DNA of 62,966 nucleotides, filler included, from Reclinomonas americana ATCC 50394 (GCA_048213135.1; 13 parts of 13 records of this genome joined end to end with filler, not necessarily neighbours in it), one strand, 5' to 3'. Positions 50,401 through 56,400 are shown, counted from the first letter of the whole stretch. The notes: generated by a model not told the origin, from the letters alone. Numbers and translations are program-made.

Positions 50401-53400
50401 ATGAGTGCGCCACCACCAGACAGGTCAGACACGATTTTATCTCTTCTCTCTCTCCCCCCCGGGCCTCCCTCTCTCTCTCACACGCACATGTGTTGCACTG
50501 TATGCTCAGTCATGGCGTCGTCGCAGCTGCTGCAAGTGGTGAGTGATCTCTCGCCGTTGATCGCTTCCTCGCAGCTCGCTCACTCTTCAATACAGACCAT
50601 GACACAGGCAACGCAGCCTNNNNNNNNNNNNNNNNNNNNNNNNNNNNNNNNNNNNNNNNNNNNTTAATTAATTAANNNNNNNNNNNNNNNNNNNNNNNNN
50701 NNNNNNNNNNNNNNNNNNNCGGAGAGGCGCACACGGCAGTGGATGAGGGCACGGTGGCCGCCGAGGAGGCGGAACGAGAGCGCGTGCGACAAAAGGAACT
50801 GCGCGCTCAGCACTTGGCCGCGTGCGAGGAGTCGCAGAGAATACGTGCCGAACTGGGTGTGTGGGCTGTGTGTCTGCTGTGCACATCACGCTGTCCATTG
50901 TCGCTTGCTGACCTCGGCCTCGTCTCTCACGCAGTCGGCAAGGCGTGGTTGTACGAGAACAATCTGGTGAATGACGAGCAGGTGTTTTACGGTCGCCGCA
51001 CTCTGGCCGAGTTTGAGGATGCGAGTTGCGTTGACGACAGTTTTTCTTTCCGGCACTGATGCTGGCCGATGGTGCCTCTGACATTGCTGGCAGTTTTGAG
51101 CATCTTTGTCGACAAGGCCGACGCGCTACCGCTGACGTCGTACGTGGTGCACCCGGTGGTTCGCGTCACCATTTTTGGTGCGCCACGATTGCAGTTGTAC
51201 CTCTCATCTCTTGTCTGCGAGCCGCTCATGTGTGATGGATGCAGACGAGGCCACTGGTATGGTGCTGACAAAGAGAACACCGGAGAGACCGGCGGTGACA
51301 CCATTCGAGACGCTGACCCGTGGAACCGAATCGCTGCCCGTTGATTTTCTCCTCCCCGTCATGACACAGGTGCGTGCGTGTGCTTTCCTCTGCGTGAGCA
51401 TTTCCATTTCCACGTCCCACTGAACGCGTCCGTCATTGCAGGCATACGATGTACGGAAACACTACGATTTGGCACCTGTGTGGAGGGAAGATCTGCTGCT
51501 GGATGTGGAGTACTTGCATGTTCTGAAACCCAGTGTGGTGTTTCTGTTTGAGATATTAGAATTTGGCCGTGATCTGCCGCTGGGTCGGTGAGCTGTCCGC
51601 GCCTCCTTTGTTTGTACGCTCGCCCGTTCCCCCTATCCACTCAACAACATATGCAGCGACATTACCACACGCGACGGATTTCAAGGAATCGCGTGGGGTT
51701 TCCTGAAGCTTGTGGGTCGACACGGACGCGCCAACACCGAAAAGGACCTCAGAATACAGTTGTACGAGTATCCATCGTGGTATGGCCACCGGAATGCCTA
51801 CGACGAGCTGCAGAAGACCCTGCCGCTCCACTTGCGACCACATGTGCGACGGAGAGCGTGGGGTGCGGAGTCGTCGCCGTTTGTGCCATCGCCGCTGCAG
51901 GCGCAACTGGCTGCTGGTGACCCAGACCGAGCACAAGACAGTGCAGCCGACGATGGTGACGAGAGACCACTCAGAGCACGACCGTCGGCGCGCGCGCGAC
52001 TGCCATCGCCGGCGATTGCCGTCAATGGGAGACCCATCTCGCGCCGTGACCCGTCGGGCGCCACCGACCAGACAGCCGACGACTTTGCCGACGAGAGCCT
52101 GGTGAGTCTGCGTATCCTCCAGCTCGTTGCCGTTACCGCGACGCGATCGACTGACTGACTGTGGCTCACCTGCAGGGCGGTGGTTCTTCGGCATTGATGG
52201 TGCGAGGAATGCCGTCGAGTGCTGCTGGTCTGCGCGATCCGCAAACTCTGCGACGGTCGCTCGGTACAGAGCTCGACGAAGGAACGGAGGTGTTTGATGA
52301 GGAGTCTGGTGGCGGTCTTCCCGCTGCGGCTGCTGCCGTCGGCCGACCGAGACCACCCTTGGTGGCTCGCATGGCAGAAGCGAATAACGGTGGTTACAAT
52401 GATGATGATGATGATGCTGATGAAGACGACGAGGACGACGAAGATGAGGAGGCCGACAATGGCGACGATGACGATGGTGCTGGTGGAGATGAGCAGCACG
52501 AGGAGGGTGAAGGCGAGGATGATTACGAGGATGTCACTGAGGTTTGTGTTACTCGCAGGATGGCCTTTTTTCATCTGCGCACTCACTCTGCTTCTTCTGT
52601 AGGAGGAGGAGGAGTGTGAGGAGCCGCCCGGAGGCCCTGCACCCGAGTACGACGACTACTATGACGACGATTACTACGACGAAGACTGGTCATATGGTGC
52701 TCAGAGAAGAGCTGCACGTCCGCGTGGTGGCCGTCGTGCTGGAGGCGGTGGTGGCGGCGGAGGTGGAGGTGGCGGTGGAGGTGGCGGTGGTGGCAGAGGA
52801 GGAGGAGGGGGTGGTGGTGGTGGTGGTGGTGGTGGCGGTGGTGGTGGAGAGTATGATGTGCCACTGTTGCTTCCGTGCCCGTGCTTGCCGCCAGAGTGCG
52901 CCTGTTTGCGAGCGTGTGCTTGTAGCAGAACGTGCTGCACCGACGAGTCGTGCACGGAGTGCTGTGCGGAGGGCGGTTCCTGCCGGCCCAGTTGCAGCTG
53001 CGATTGTGCTCGGTGCGCCGGAGGTGGTTGCCCCACGCTCTGCTCCTCATGCGGTGACGGCAACTGCTGTCCGTGCTGCAATCGCCCGTCACAACCGTGC
53101 TGCGGTTCATGTTGCGGCGACGATGCATGCCGTAGCTGCAAGGTGAGACGCACTTTCCTGTATGGCACTTACACATGCATGCTGTGTTGCGCTCACTTTT
53201 TTTTTGTGTGCAGACGTGCTGCATGAGTTTGCGTGTCAAGTGTTCGGTGTGCTGCGCCAAGTGCGGCGAGTGCCTGCCCTGCAGTCGAGAGTGTTTCAGC
53301 CAGTGCTTCTCGTGTGGAAGCTGCGCTGGAGGCGGCTGTACGGACTGTTGCGGTGGCCCCGGACCCGGGTTGTGCGATCGCTGCTCCACGTGCTGCACCA

Positions 53401-56400
53401 AGTTCCGCCTCTGGTGCGTCTCGTGTCAGTGCCCGCGGTGCGATTGCTCCTGCAAGTGCGACTGTGGAGGACCAGGGCCCGGCATGTGCGATCGGTGCAT
53501 TGCCAACTGCGCGCACGTGTGTCAGTGCAACTGGGCCGCCTGCTGCGCTGGCTGCTTCGATTTCGGCAAAACCCGCGGATGCGGCGACTGCGACGTGCGC
53601 AATCCGACGTGTTTCGAGTTTGCCTGCTGCCCCGACATTGCGACTTGCGACGAGGAGGACGTGCGCGTACCGCAAATTCTCGCACTCTACTGCAATGCCG
53701 CGCTGCGCAACAAGTACCCAAGCACGTTGCATGTGCGTGTCAGCGGGAAGCCGCGACCCGAGGGCCGCGTGGTCAAGGGCAAGCGCACCATGTTTGCACG
53801 TGATGTGGAGCAAGGTTGGTTCTGTGATTCTCCTCTTCCTCGGGCGTTCACGCCATTCTTGCTCATCATTCGGCGGCATGCATGCAGGAGCACACGGCGT
53901 CATCCGACTGCAGATGCGCGACGGCGAGTTGGTGCCGGTGCGCGAGTTGCTAGAGGAAGAGGGCGACGCAGTCGGCACGAAAGCGGAATCGGATTCGTTT
54001 GAGGAGGAGTCGCGACTGATAGATTTGGTGCGTGACGATAGCACATGTGTTTGATTGTGGTCACGTTCTCACTCCCGCCCGCTCTGCAGCCTGTTGTACA
54101 AAAGCAGCGGCTGCCAAACGACCCGTGTGTACCACCCAATGCCTCGCTGTTTACTTTCGACGCCGGTGATCGGTGCGTCGCCCAGTGCTGTGTGATGTAG
54201 TTTTCCACGTTGCTGACTTACACACACATGCAGCGGCTCTCTCTGCTGCGACATTAGCAACACTGGTCGGTACCTGGCGTTTGGGGCCTCGGAAGGAGTC
54301 GTTCATGGCGTGGCAGTTCGCTCGACGCAGAGCGGACGAGTCGTCGCCAACCACGCCGCACACTTGTCCGTGGTTTACGACGTGCAGTTTTCGAGTGACG
54401 ATGAACTGGTGGTCAGTGCCTCTGCCGACCGCAGCGCACGCGTTTTCAACCTGCACGGATACTTGCAGTGGCACGCTGGTGCCAAGTTGCGTTCCACTAC
54501 TTGAGTGACAAGCACCAAAGAAAAAGAAGCGCACGCTGCTGACACGCAGCTCATTTCCTGGCAATGCAGGCAGCGAGCCGAGGACCGAGCGCGTGCCGCC
54601 GCACACTCTCCACCGCTGCGTGAGAGAGACTCGGCGCACTCGACCAGTCGCGCACACTCGCCTCCGGTCAACGAGGCGCCCGTTCCGGCAGCCGACGGCG
54701 CTGCGGCTGTTGGTGCGGAGAATGTGCCCGGCCCCGGCACGAGTGAGGCGGCGTTGAGTGATGGAACAGGAGCGCCGACCGAGGTGTCAGAGGAGATGTC
54801 AGACGAGGACTTTGTGGTGACCTTGCACCATCCGTGCTTTGTGTACACGGCACGCTTCCACCCGGATCCGCGAATGCGGTGAGCACCCGTCTTCTTGAGT
54901 ACCTCCACACACAATTGTTCTCACCGGATTCTTGGGAGCAGCATGGTGGCCACCGGTGGACTGGACAAGCGCGTGCGACTGTGGAATGCGCGCACTGGCA
55001 CTCTTCTTCGAGTGCTCGAGCCGCCCCATCTCGGTCACATTAATGCTTTGTGTTTCGATTCGGTGAGTGTGCATGGCTGCGCTGTCGGTGGTGTCGCCCG
55101 TGACTGACGGTGATCGTCTCTCTATCTGTGTGCAGTTGGGCCGACGTCTCTACTCGGCCGACTCGTCGGGTTCTGTGTGCTTGTGGCGCGTGGCCAACTT
55201 TGGTCCCGGCGAGCAGCAACTTGGTGCGCCACTCTTTGTATCCCCCACCGTCAAAACGAATCTCTTGCGCGCACTCGTTCTCACGTCGCAAACGAAATGC
55301 ATGATGCCGCAGGTGATCCACAGCTGCTTGCCGACTCGTACTCGTTGGCGCGCTCGGCGCACAACCGCGAGTACGCTGCCGTGTCGGTGACCTCGATCAG
55401 CGTGCATCCACGCGGTAAACACGTGGTGATTCAGACCAAGGACAACCTCCTGCGACGCCTCAACGCCGATCTGTTGACTGTGGAGACTCGCTACTACGGC
55501 TGTCTGTCATCGCGGCTCTGTCTGCGGTCGTGTATCTCTCCGGATGGACAGTACGTGGCCGCGGCCTCGGAAGACGGCCGACTCTACGTGTGGGAGTTTC
55601 TCTCTGCGCGGCTCGTCAACGAAGCCACGTTGCCGGTCGTCCTCTTTCCGCCATACACGGCCATTGAGCAAGCGGCTCTAGCGGTGGCGGCGGCGCCGCC
55701 AGGGGGCGGTTCGCACACCGTCGATGCACAAGTGGAGGCGGCACTGCACCCGATCGACAACACTCGACGGGTGTATCCGTCACTCACCTTTGTCACGTGG
55801 AGTCGCACAGAGCACGCACTGGCCGTGGCCTCACTGGCCGCTCACGAGTCGGTTCATTTGCTGTACTACGAGCCGCGTCTCGACCAGCTGCGTGGACGTG
55901 TGACGCAGCAAGTGGACGAGGTGCGTGTTGCTCTCGATGGCAACGCCGCGCATGCGCCGGCGGCGTTTGGCGGCGATCATGATGCCGACGACGACGGCGG
56001 GCTCGACTCGACCATGGTGGACTTTGAGGTGGAGGCCGACACAGATGCACTGCAAGAGCGTTCGCAGTCGCGTATGCCGGCCTCGCTTCTCAGTCACTTG
56101 CCGCGCCGTGCAATGCCGGCGCTGACGGTCACGAGCGGTCTGCTGTCTGCGTCGCAACCACCGGCGGCGCCGGCGAGCCCACAGGCGGATCGCAAGTCGG
56201 CCATGCACGATGTGGTGGCTCGCGCCCTGCAGTCGATCCACGGCCACCAGCCGGTCGACATGCCGAGTGCCCCCGACGCCGAGGAGACGTACAACCGAAT
56301 GATTGAGCACTTCCTGGCCTCGTACTCGACTCTGCGTACGATTGAGCTGCCGGGCGACTCGGACTCGGAGGCGTCGGGTGCCCTTCGCCGCGATGCTCCA

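What the first reader, a model, noticed from the sequence alone, without database searches (positions are those of the whole stretch)
51775..53700. Jouberin C2 domain interrupted by a several-hundred-residue acidic, poly-Gly and extremely Cys-rich insertion
Known: in AHI1 the LRLQLY and YPSTLYV motifs are a few tens of residues apart. Seen: here they are separated by about 1.9 kb that stays in frame through canonical introns (52102, 52542, 53143). It encodes D/E tracts, a poly-Gly linker and then about 250 aa at roughly 30% Cys (CC and CxxC, with an internal repeat CGGPGPG[L/M]CDRC). Inference: a metallothionein-like metal-binding, disulfide-crosslinking or multiply palmitoylated module grafted onto a ciliary transition-zone protein.
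Basis: partly seen in the sequence, partly recalled or inferred. Interest (0 to 1): 0.7.

Follow-up and report, generated by a model that had tools for sequence, protein, structure and literature searches.

The report
Giant cysteine-rich loop in AHI1
A gene for the ciliary-gate protein AHI1 (jouberin) in an unidentified flagellated protist appears to carry about 540 extra residues, including a block that is 29% cysteine, inside one loop of its membrane-binding C2 domain; this is unusual, but no RNA data or related genome confirms it.

Summary
The contig 50721-56487 reads as one spliced open frame of 1,579 codons. It has an AHI1-type C2 domain followed by WD40 repeats.

- **Size of the loop.** Between LRIQLY (51748-51765) and YPSTLHV (53715-53735) lie 581 residues. 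In the AHI1 rows I read in the published AHI1-C2 alignment (PMC3495828 supplement), this spacing is 26-46 residues.
- **Insert.** Both loop flanks resemble those of orthologues. The extra 539 residues (51844-53666) comprise an Ala/Arg/Pro/Asp-rich block, an acidic block, an Arg/poly-Gly block and a 243-residue block with 70 Cys.
- **Introns.** Three 61-74 nt introns match the gene's 12 other introns. A frame-blind intron scan finds only these three in the region.
- **Coding signals.** Cys codons are locked to the spliced frame. The two copies of the internal repeat differ by 7 synonymous changes and 1 replacement.
- **No relative of the Cys block.** Pfam, PDB sequences, two searches of a 5.8-billion-protein collection and a metagenome scan found none.
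- **What is missing.** No RNA run was listed, no genome is held for this window, and the one relative found is a 202-residue fragment.

Best reading: a real, lineage-specific translated insertion (about 0.75). Its Cys block probably binds metal through thiolates; that part is inference. Rivals are a tolerated expansion without function, a palmitoyl anchor, and removal by splicing. Interest is moderate.

The parts
51094..51587 (+). First three AHI1-C2 exons (51094-51177, 51245-51369, 51442-51587), separated by introns of 67 and 72 nt
   Evidence: Spliced model is open. Motifs line up with the published AHI1-C2 alignment. The relative P0154 is 59-69% identical.
51657..51843 (+). Conserved start of exon 4: the GIAWGFLK and LRIQLY (51748-51765) strands, and the N-side flank of the loop up to ...RPH
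   Evidence: Aligned by eye to the published alignment. Frame-shift decoding of the P0154 tail is compatible at 10-11 of 12 positions along LYEYPSWYGHRNAYDELQ.
51844..52101 (+). Insert block A, the rest of exon 4 (86 codons): Ala/Arg/Pro/Asp-rich
   Evidence: Open and continuous with the conserved part. Composition, measured over a 92-residue stretch that starts six residues earlier.
52102..52175 (+). Intron, 74 nt, phase 0, GTGAGT...CTCAC...CAG
   Evidence: PWM percentiles: donor 97, acceptor 95.
52176..52541 (+). Exon 5 (366 nt, phase 0-0): acidic block, D+E 41 of 122
   Evidence: Translation P0001. Composition. GAC/GAT-type microsatellite structure.
52542..52602 (+). Intron, 61 nt, phase 0, GTTTGT...CTCAC...TAG
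   Evidence: PWM percentiles: donor 93, acceptor 82.
52603..52848 (+). First part of exon 6: acidic/Tyr stretch, then an Arg/poly-Gly block (52687-52848; 38 Gly and 7 Arg of 54)
   Evidence: Translation P0002. Tandem GGT/GGC array. Composition.
52849..53142 (+). Cys-rich block, first part (end of exon 6; the whole exon is 540 nt, phase 0-0)
   Evidence: 29 of 39 TGY triplets are in the exon frame.
53143..53213 (+). Intron, 71 nt, phase 0, GTGAGA...CTCAC-T9...CAG
   Evidence: PWM percentiles: donor 91, acceptor 98. The TGY phase changes across it.
53214..53648 (+). Cys-rich block, second part (start of exon 7). It holds the two copies of CGGPGPG[L/M]CDRC at 53349-53384 and 53463-53498.
   Evidence: Translation P0003. 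41 of 52 TGY in frame. Repeat copies differ by 7 synonymous and 1 replacement change, pS 0.79, pN 0.037.
53649..53814 (+). Rest of exon 7: a short acidic link (insert ends at 53666), the conserved C-side flank VPQIL...RNK (53667-53714), YPSTLHV (53715-53735) and the last C2 strands
   Evidence: Same exon and frame as the Cys block, with no stop or CAG/TAG acceptor between them. Aligned to the published AHI1-C2 alignment.
54234..56487 (+). WD40 propeller exons and C-terminal tail. The contig ends at a linker gap before any stop codon.
   Evidence: Pfam WD40: E 3.3e-8 for 54217-54504 and 1.8e-6 for 55114-56490. Gene model.

Best explanation
This is the AHI1/jouberin gene of a short-intron flagellated protist. 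One surface loop of its C2 domain lies between the LRIQLY strand and the strand that ends in YPSTLHV. In the orthologues I read, the whole stretch between these two motifs is 26-46 residues. Here it has grown by 539 residues, encoded by the 3' part of exon 4, two symmetric phase-0 exons (5 and 6) and the 5' part of exon 7.

The insert is translated as part of AHI1 (my estimate about 0.75). Its N-side 296 residues form a flexible tether: an Ala/Arg/Pro/Asp-rich block, an acidic block and an Arg/poly-Gly block. Its C-side 243 residues form a dense cysteine module that joins the next C2 strand after only six residues, so it sits next to the C2 domain.

Inferred mechanism: AHI1 acts on the cytosolic (reducing) side of the ciliary transition zone. 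Seventy thiols spaced CC, CxC and CxxC would most likely fold around Zn(II) or Cu(I) as metal-thiolate clusters. The result would be a compact, redox-sensitive knob beside the membrane-facing C2 domain, able to switch to disulfide cross-links on oxidation.

Shown: the anatomy, the frame continuity, the splice signals, the codon periodicity and the constraint on one repeated motif. Inferred: translation, and all of the chemistry.
For: Identity as AHI1:
- The C2 exons match the published AHI1-C2 alignment in order. Examples are HP-V-V--D--TG, LLPVMTQ-YD, the FEILEF strand, IAWGFLKLVG, LR-QLY and YPSTL-V.
- WD40 repeats follow.
- The ESM Atlas places the relative's C2 part among C2-type clusters. 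This is only a lead.

Exonic status of the insert:
- The whole contig gives one open spliced frame of 1,579 codons with 15 introns of 54-89 nt.
- A motif scan that ignores reading frame finds exactly the three modelled introns in 51780-53700. It recovers 13 of the 15 modelled introns, with 26 candidates on the + strand against 3 on the - strand.
- A PWM built from the 12 other introns puts the insert's donors at percentiles 91-97 and its acceptors at 82-98.
- All three insert introns carry the CTCAC branch-like motif that most of the gene's introns show.
- None of the three has a length divisible by 3, so each must be spliced for the WD40 part to be read.

The Cys block cannot be a separate gene. 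It shares exon 7 and its frame with the conserved C-side flank, and no stop or CAG/TAG acceptor lies after 53525.

Coding signals:
- TGY triplets are phase-locked in both exons (29 of 39, chi-square p 4e-7; 41 of 52, p 3e-11). The phase jump sits at the 71-nt intron.
- The two repeat copies differ at 8 sites: 7 synonymous and 1 replacement (Fisher p 3e-5).
- TGC:TGT is 54:17 in the insert and 14:5 in 1,052 reference codons.

Chemistry by analogy:
- The Cys density and spacing are those given for metallothioneins (PMC1808422, passages read).
- Cys/Pro-rich proteins of the sperm flagellar base bind zinc and form disulfides (PMC8471410, passage read).
Against: - No transcript evidence exists.
- No orthologue with the insert was found. 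The single relative (P0154, one 1,403-nt contig) shows conservation only up to about ...RPH.R (about 51850), and its frame is lost there.
- A GT at 51844 joined to the AG at 53653-53654 or 53656-53657 would keep the frame and give a canonical 45-46 residue loop.
- Codon-usage scores do not single out the Cys frame. Other frames score as well.
- The acidic and Gly tracts look like ordinary triplet-repeat expansions.
- Only one short motif shows constraint. Halves of the Cys block are otherwise no more alike than shuffles (46 of 300 and 166 of 300 shuffles reach the observed score).
- The block has 10 aromatic residues and no match to any metallothionein family.
- AlphaFold2 gave no confident fold (mean pLDDT 38).
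Confidence: 0.4

Rival explanations
1. Tolerated expansion without a specific job. The insert is translated, but it is only a run of compositionally biased sequence that grew by slippage and duplication in a permissive surface loop. It stays open only because the essential WD40 part lies downstream.
For: - Microsatellite-like structure of the acidic and Gly tracts.
- A second low-complexity stretch of roughly 90 residues interrupts the WD40 region at 54550-54830.
- The UAA transporter ORF at 48334-49665 has Ala and Gly-His runs.
- No homologue of the Cys block was found anywhere.
- Apart from one motif, there is no internal similarity beyond composition.
Against: - The Cys block is not a simple repeat; Tandem Repeats Finder lists no tandem array in the Cys block apart from one weak 19-nt row of 2.5 seven-base copies at its far end, 53633-53651.
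- The other Cys-rich six-frame stretches in the window are mostly simple repeats such as TG microsatellites and stop-interrupted frames, unlike this one.
- Seventy Cys codons have been kept while duplicated copies reached pS 0.79 with pN 0.037.
Confidence: 0.25
2. Lipid anchor. Clusters of the cysteines are S-palmitoylated, which adds a strong membrane tether to a C2 domain that is itself thought to contact the ciliary membrane.
For: - The AHI1-C2 domain is proposed as a membrane-localisation module (PMC3495828, passages read).
- There are 12 CC pairs and dense Cys strings.
- The Cys block sits six residues from the next C2 strand.
Against: - 70 Cys over 243 residues is far more than the Cys strings of palmitoylated proteins as I recall them (not checked here).
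- Regular CxxC and CxC spacing is more typical of metal sites.
- Nothing here tests acylation.
Confidence: 0.12
3. Mostly spliced out. The main mRNA removes the insert through a long intron (51844 to 53654 or 53657), or skips the symmetric exons 5 and 6, so the working protein has a near-canonical loop.
For: - The 51844 donor with the 53654 or 53657 acceptor keeps the frame and gives a 45-46 residue loop, like protist orthologues.
- Compatibility with the relative ends near 51850.
- Exons 5 (366 nt) and 6 (540 nt) are phase 0-0, so skipping them keeps the frame.
Against: - The acceptors are GAG with no branch-like motif and rank at PWM percentiles 70 and 30. The donor ranks at percentile 68.
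- All 15 modelled acceptors are CAG or TAG.
- The intron would be 1.8 kb in a gene whose 15 introns are 54-89 nt.
- It would have to contain three well-formed introns and codon-phased sequence.
- Even the best internal CAG acceptor near the 3' end (53525) leaves about 47 Cys-rich residues.
- Exon skipping still leaves 86 + 145 insert residues.
Confidence: 0.12
4. Disulfide-cross-linked structural element. The module is oxidised to stiffen the flagellar base, as in Cys/Pro-rich proteins of the sperm connecting piece and outer dense fibres.
For: - Gly/Pro/Cys motif CGGPGPG-CDRC.
- Precedent of Cys/Pro-rich, zinc-binding, disulfide-stabilised flagellar-base proteins (PMC8471410, passage read).
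Against: - The cytosol of a free-living cell is reducing.
- No similarity to ODF1 or keratin-associated families.
Confidence: 0.08
5. Artefact: a chimeric or mis-assembled contig, or a decaying gene copy.
For: - The window is a chain of short contigs joined by N...TTAATTAATTAA...N linkers.
- The poly-Gly repeat is hard to assemble.
- No second assembly or reads were available.
Against: - The insert is internal to one gap-free contig and is flanked on both sides by AHI1-C2 sequence in the right order and frame.
- There are no stops in 1,579 codons.
Confidence: 0.03

Closest known systems
AHI1/jouberin orthologues (AHI1-C2 + WD40, with or without SH3; Zhang & Aravind 2012, PMC3495828)
   Same: Same order of C2 strands and signature motifs, followed by a WD40 propeller. 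The loop flanks resemble those of Phytophthora, Ectocarpus, Naegleria and Batrachochytrium.
   Different: The spacing from the QLY strand to YPSTL is 581 residues, against 26-46 in the rows read. No SH3 is seen, because the contig ends first. A second low-complexity insert lies in the propeller.
Metallothioneins, especially the long modular Tetrahymena subfamily 7a (162 residues; PMC1808422)
   Same: About 30% Cys in CC, CxC and CxxC spacing, almost no His, and growth by internal duplication.
   Different: The block is 243 residues, embedded in a loop of a large scaffold protein rather than a free small protein. It has 10 aromatic residues, no CxCCK-type module and no Pfam match. Metal binding is untested.
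Cys/Pro-rich proteins of the sperm flagellar base and outer dense fibres (ODF1/HSPB10; PMC8471410)
   Same: An intracellular, flagellum-associated, Cys- and Pro/Gly-rich protein. The precedent shows zinc binding and disulfide stabilisation at a flagellar base.
   Different: No sequence similarity. The precedent is an animal-specific accessory structure. Here the Cys module is part of a transition-zone protein of a protist.
Lineage-specific low-complexity insertions in protist proteins (general phenomenon, recalled, not searched)
   Same: Homopolymer-like acidic and Gly tracts inside loops of conserved domains, kept in frame.
   Different: The Cys block is complex, not repetitive, and shows a constrained motif.

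Membership tests
AHI1/jouberin | AHI1-type C2 domain N-terminal to the propeller | tested here: met
   Compared by eye, motif by motif, between the spliced translation and the published AHI1-C2 alignment. No scored alignment was possible, because the reference rows could not be entered into a tool. The Atlas gives C2-type leads for the relative's C2 part. Pfam has no hit for these exons.
AHI1/jouberin | WD40 beta-propeller after the C2 domain | tested here: met
   Pfam PF00400: E 3.3e-8 (54217-54504) and 1.8e-6 (55114-56490). PDB sequence search gives only generic WD40 matches.
AHI1/jouberin | C-terminal SH3 domain | tested here: inconclusive
   No SH3 hit in 55114-56490, but the contig ends at 56487 without a stop. 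PMC3495828 states that SH3 was added later in evolution and that the core is C2 + WD40.
AHI1/jouberin | Orthology shown by sequence search against named AHI1 proteins | tested here: inconclusive
   The only specific hit is the unnamed fragment P0154. The WD40-exon search returned generic multi-WD40 proteins, none matching the C2 exons.
Metallothionein | Small free protein (under 7-10 kDa, usually 24-75 residues) | tested here: not met
   A 243-residue block inside a protein of at least 1,579 residues. Definition from PMC1808422.
Metallothionein | About 25-33% Cys in CC, CxC and CxxC motifs | tested here: met
   70 of 243 residues (29%); CC 12, CxC 12, CxxC 20.
Metallothionein | Lack of aromatic residues and His | tested here: not met
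   1 His but 10 aromatic residues.
Metallothionein | Match to a metallothionein sequence family | tested here: not met
   No Pfam family at E up to 1 for P0002 or P0003. The PDB sequence search gave only one chance-level hit, E 1.2.
Metallothionein | Metal-thiolate cluster formation | not testable with these tools
   Needs recombinant protein and metal analysis.
Keratin-associated / ODF1-type Cys-rich structural proteins | Sequence family match and disulfide cross-linking | tested here: not met
   No Pfam hit. Cross-linking is not testable here.

The most novel reading that the evidence does not exclude
A ciliary transition-zone scaffold protein has acquired its own metal- or redox-responsive cysteine module right beside its membrane-binding C2 domain. 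In this lineage, attachment of the ciliary gate to the membrane, or its stiffness, would then be controlled by zinc or copper loading, thiol oxidation or multiple palmitoylation. No transition-zone protein is known to me to have this (recalled).
Probability: 0.2. Interest if true: 0.6.

Novelty: new variant of a known kind. Interest (0 to 1): 0.35.

Why it matters
If the insert is translated, two points follow.
- A C2 beta-sandwich of a conserved ciliary-gate protein can carry an insert about twice the size of the domain itself, and more than ten times its usual loop length.
- It would be a natural example of a metal- or redox-reactive module placed at the ciliary base. That could be tested for effects on gate function.

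It is also a practical warning. A gene predictor or an alignment-based annotator would probably split or truncate this AHI1.

If the insert is only a tolerated expansion, it is a curiosity of a genome that seems prone to low-complexity growth.

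Tried and rejected
- **RNA evidence:** no RNA holder was listed for 51400-54400.
- **Own genome:** none is held, so I could not look for paralogues, a source of the insert or genome-wide codon usage.
- **Search of 1.84 billion representatives with the WD40 exon 55315-55920**: the best 150 were generic multi-repeat WD40 proteins. None matched the C2 exons (best E 0.087). This spent the only job of that kind.
- **Homologues of the Cys exon P0003:** longer proteins, 67 candidates, none scored. 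Similar length, 22 candidates, none. Shorter proteins were not searched.
- **Metagenome scans:** with P0003, 96 pattern matches and none confirmed. With the C2 alignment A2, 79 matches and none confirmed.
- **ESM Atlas** on the WD40 exon gave only generic WD40.
- **AlphaFold2 of P0003** without an alignment: mean pLDDT 38, pTM 0.22. No fold search was run on it.
- **PDB sequence search with P0003:** one hit at E 1.2.
- **Codon log-likelihood and synonymous-codon tests** did not separate the Cys frame from other open frames.
- **Antisense gene:** the only stop-free minus frame under exon 7 has a strongly negative synonymous-codon score (-59.3). Only 3 intron-like candidates lie on the minus strand, against 26 on the plus strand. 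Rejected.
- **Nested gene:** rejected, because no stop or good acceptor separates the Cys block from the conserved flank.
- **Transposon origin:** no terminal inverted repeats, only one 16-nt palindrome.
- **Earlier notes of this scan:** nothing near, nothing similar by sequence or among relatives.
- **Literature:** the search 'AHI1' + 'cysteine-rich' found 28 papers. Judging from titles and abstract starts only, none of the 10 listed concerns a Cys-rich AHI1. The search 'ciliary transition zone' + 'palmitoylation' + 'C2 domain' found 2 papers, listing only.
- **Scored alignment to named AHI1 proteins:** not done, because the reference sequences are available only as text of a paper supplement.

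Full report
**What the window is.** The window is eukaryotic, with GC near 55%. It is a chain of short contigs joined by N...TTAATTAATTAA...N linkers. The finding lies in a gap-free contig, 50721-56487. No whole genome is held for it, and no RNA run was listed. Earlier notes of this scan on other pieces of the same genome call it an unidentified, short-intron, flagellated eukaryote. I used that only as context.

**Gene model.** With 15 introns of 54-89 nt, the whole contig reads as one open frame of 1,579 codons, cut off at both ends by the linkers. One donor, near 54478-54487, is uncertain; it lies outside the finding. As modelled, 14 donors begin with GT, mostly GTGAGT- or GTGCGT-like; the uncertain one near 54478-54487 has a GT only at the alternative position 54478. 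All acceptors are CAG (14) or TAG (1). Most introns show a CTCAC/CTGAC-like motif a short distance upstream of the acceptor.

**Identity as AHI1.** Pfam finds WD40 repeats in the downstream exons (E 3.3e-8 and 1.8e-6) and nothing in the upstream exons. Zhang & Aravind 2012 (PMC3495828) defined an AHI1-specific C2 domain N-terminal to the WD40 propeller. They state that C2 + WD40 is the ancestral core and that SH3 was added later (passages read). Their supplementary alignment was read in parts 1, 3 and 5 of 77. It matches the spliced translation along the whole domain:
- the HP-V-V--D--TG strand pair
- LLPVMTQ-YD
- the FEILEF strand
- IAWGFLKLVG
- LR-QLY
- YPSTL-V

This comparison was by eye. 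I could not enter the paper's rows into a tool, so no score is given.

The only specific database relative is P0154, an unnamed 202-residue fragment from one 1,403-nt contig. It matches exon 3 at E 6.5e-14 with 69% identity, and exon 2 at 59%. The ESM Atlas places its first 118 residues among C2-type clusters (Aida_C2, PI3K_C2, DOCK-C2, C2-C2_1; scores 0.84-0.92). That is only a lead.

**The observation.** Between ...IQLY and YPSTLHV lie 581 residues. I counted the same spacing by hand in the published alignment:

| Species | Residues |
|---|---|
| Human, chicken | 26 |
| Ciona, Batrachochytrium | 29 |
| Tetrahymena | 35 |
| Phytophthora infestans | 40 |
| Ectocarpus | 43 |
| Naegleria | 46 |

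Both ends of the loop look like those of orthologues. The N-side is 26 residues (EYPSW...RPH, 51766-51843). The C-side is 16 residues (VPQIL...RNK, 53667-53714). Together they make 42 residues, a normal loop. The extra part is therefore 51844-53666: 1,823 nt, less 206 nt of introns, or 539 codons.

The extra part has four blocks:
- an Ala/Arg/Pro/Asp-rich block
- an acidic block (exon 5: D 19%, E 15%; core 58% D+E)
- a block of 38 Gly and 7 Arg in 54 residues
- a 243-residue block with 70 Cys (29%), 1 His and 10 aromatic residues

**Is the insert exonic?** An open frame alone proves little here. Several frames on both strands stay open for 275-325 codons. Codon-usage scores also do not single out the Cys frame. 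Four other lines of evidence do.

1. A scan for intron-like segments that ignores reading frame required a GT[GT]NG donor, 50-95 nt, a CT[CG]A[ACT] motif and a YAG acceptor. In 51780-53700 it finds exactly the three modelled introns. Across the contig it recovers 13 of 15 modelled introns. It gives 26 candidates on the + strand and 3 on the - strand. A PWM trained only on the 12 other introns ranks the insert's donors at percentiles 91-97 and its acceptors at 82-98 of all GT and AG sites in the contig.
2. The three introns are 74, 61 and 71 nt, none divisible by 3. Removing just these three gives a stop-free frame that joins both conserved flanks. The other two frames of the same spliced stretch have 10 and 30 stops.
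3. TGY triplets are phase-locked: 29 of 39 in the Cys part of exon 6 and 41 of 52 in that of exon 7. The genomic phase changes exactly across the 71-nt intron. Periodicity alone cannot tell the strand. However, the only stop-free antisense frame under exon 7 has a very poor synonymous-codon score (-59.3).
4. The two copies of CGGPGPG[L/M]CDRC are 38 codons apart. They differ at 8 of 36 bases: 7 synonymous and 1 replacement (pS 0.79, pN 0.037, Fisher p 3e-5). This motif has therefore been kept at the protein level since an old duplication.

The Cys block is not a simple repeat. The other Cys-rich six-frame stretches in the window are mostly simple repeats such as TG microsatellites and stop-interrupted frames.

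**Could it be a nested gene or be spliced out?** The second half of the Cys block and the conserved C-side flank lie in one exon and one frame. No stop separates them, and no CAG or TAG acceptor lies after 53525. A separate nested transcript is therefore not tenable.

One alternative deserves mention. A GT at 51844 joined to the AG at 53653-53654 or 53656-53657 keeps the frame and gives a 45-46 residue loop, the canonical size. Against it:
- Those acceptors are GAG, lack the branch-like motif and rank at percentiles 70 and 30. The donor ranks at percentile 68.
- The intron would be 1.8 kb in a gene whose introns are 54-89 nt.

Exons 5 and 6 are both phase 0-0, so skipping them would keep the frame. 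That would still leave 86 + 145 insert residues. I put removal of most of the insert from the main mRNA at about 0.12.

**The relative.** P0154 runs without a break across two of our intron positions. It leaves the AHI1 frame after ...NTEKD. I decoded its tail one base out of frame, listing every residue that its codons allow. Along one diagonal, 10-11 of 12 positions are compatible with LYEYPSWYGHRNAYDELQ. Of 46,008 comparisons of 12 positions, only 23 reach 9 or more. tblastn gives a weak match in that frame (E 0.01). So the relative has the N-side flank. Compatibility continues, more weakly, to about ...RPH.R and is then lost. No stretch compatible with YPSTL was among the best matches in its remaining 30 or so codons. 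This fits either a diverged insert or an intron. It does not decide the question.

**What the Cys block is.** No relative was found:
- Pfam at E up to 1
- PDB sequences
- the 5.8-billion-protein collection, at longer and at similar lengths
- JGI metagenomes
- this scan's own notes

AlphaFold2 without an alignment gave no confident model.

By composition and spacing, it resembles metallothioneins. PMC1808422 (passages read) describes these as proteins under 7-10 kDa, typically with 18-23 Cys and lacking aromatic residues and His. In that paper, the 162-residue Tetrahymena forms already fall in the top 1% by length. The block here is longer, is embedded in a scaffold protein and has 10 aromatic residues. 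It is therefore not a member of that family.

A second analogy is the Cys/Pro-rich proteins of the sperm connecting piece and outer dense fibres. These bind zinc and are stabilised by disulfides (PMC8471410, passage read).

**Most likely mechanism (inferred).** AHI1 works on the cytosolic side of the transition zone, and its C2 domain is proposed to contact the membrane (PMC3495828). In a reducing compartment, such dense CC, CxC and CxxC arrays most plausibly fold around Zn(II) or Cu(I). The 296 residues on the N side would form a flexible, highly charged tether. The Cys module itself joins the next C2 strand after six residues, so it would sit against the C2 domain near the membrane.

My probabilities:
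- translated insertion: about 0.75
- overall, with translation included:
  - metal-thiolate module: about 0.40
  - tolerated expansion with no specific role: 0.25
  - mostly spliced out: 0.12
  - palmitoyl anchor: 0.12
  - disulfide-linked structure: 0.08
  - artefact: 0.03

**Novelty and verdict.** I found no description of an AHI1 with such an insert. The search 'AHI1' + 'cysteine-rich' returned 28 papers, and from titles and abstract starts none of the 10 listed concerns it. None of the AHI1 rows I read in the published alignment has it.

This is a new variant of a known protein, not a new kind of system. Low-complexity growth in protist proteins is common. The large, non-repetitive Cys block with a constrained motif is the unusual part. 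There is no transcript and no second species, and the function is unproven, so interest is moderate.

Noticed in passing
window 3046-3145, 5481-5580, 12844-12943, 18659-18758, 23051-23150, 24844-24943, 28980-29079, 48202-48301, 50620-50719, 56488-56587, 59365-59464, 61160-61259: Twelve N...TTAATTAATTAA...N linkers. The window is a chain of short contigs, so neighbouring genes need not be neighbours in the genome.
   Followed up: partly
window 54550-54830: A second low-complexity stretch of roughly 90 residues (Ala/Pro/Ser/Arg-rich) sits inside the WD40 region of the same gene, just before the HHPCFVYTARFHP strand.
   Followed up: no
P0154 against window 51245-51780: The relative's ORF is continuous across two of our intron positions (51370-51441, 51588-51656). 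It appears to have an extra frame-breaking segment of about 50-70 nt between ...NTEKD and ...QLY where our gene has none. This suggests intron loss or gain between the two lineages, or a partly spliced transcript.
   Followed up: partly
window 52176-52541 and 52603-53142: Exons 5 (366 nt) and 6 (540 nt) are both symmetric phase 0-0 exons. That geometry allows exon shuffling or in-frame skipping.
   Followed up: partly
window 48337-49665 (-): A long ORF for a UAA-family nucleotide-sugar transporter (Pfam PF08449, E 1.4e-49), with a poly-Ala run and a Gly-His repeat near its C-terminus.
   Followed up: no
window 23441-24841 (-): An ORF with a PTEN-type C2 domain hit (PF10409, E 3.2e-11).
   Followed up: no
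window 33623-36324 (+) and 61295-62242 (+): Further WD40-repeat ORFs on other contigs of the window (Pfam E 1e-8 to 1e-13).
   Followed up: no
window 12662-12841, 13022-13201, 62643-62822: TG microsatellites that read as Cys-Val runs in one frame. They show that 'Cys-rich' six-frame windows elsewhere in the window are simple repeats.
   Followed up: yes
window 56588-58734 (+): The next contig begins with a Ser/Ala-rich stretch followed by a long coiled-coil ORF. Whether it continues the AHI1 gene across the linker is unknown.
   Followed up: no
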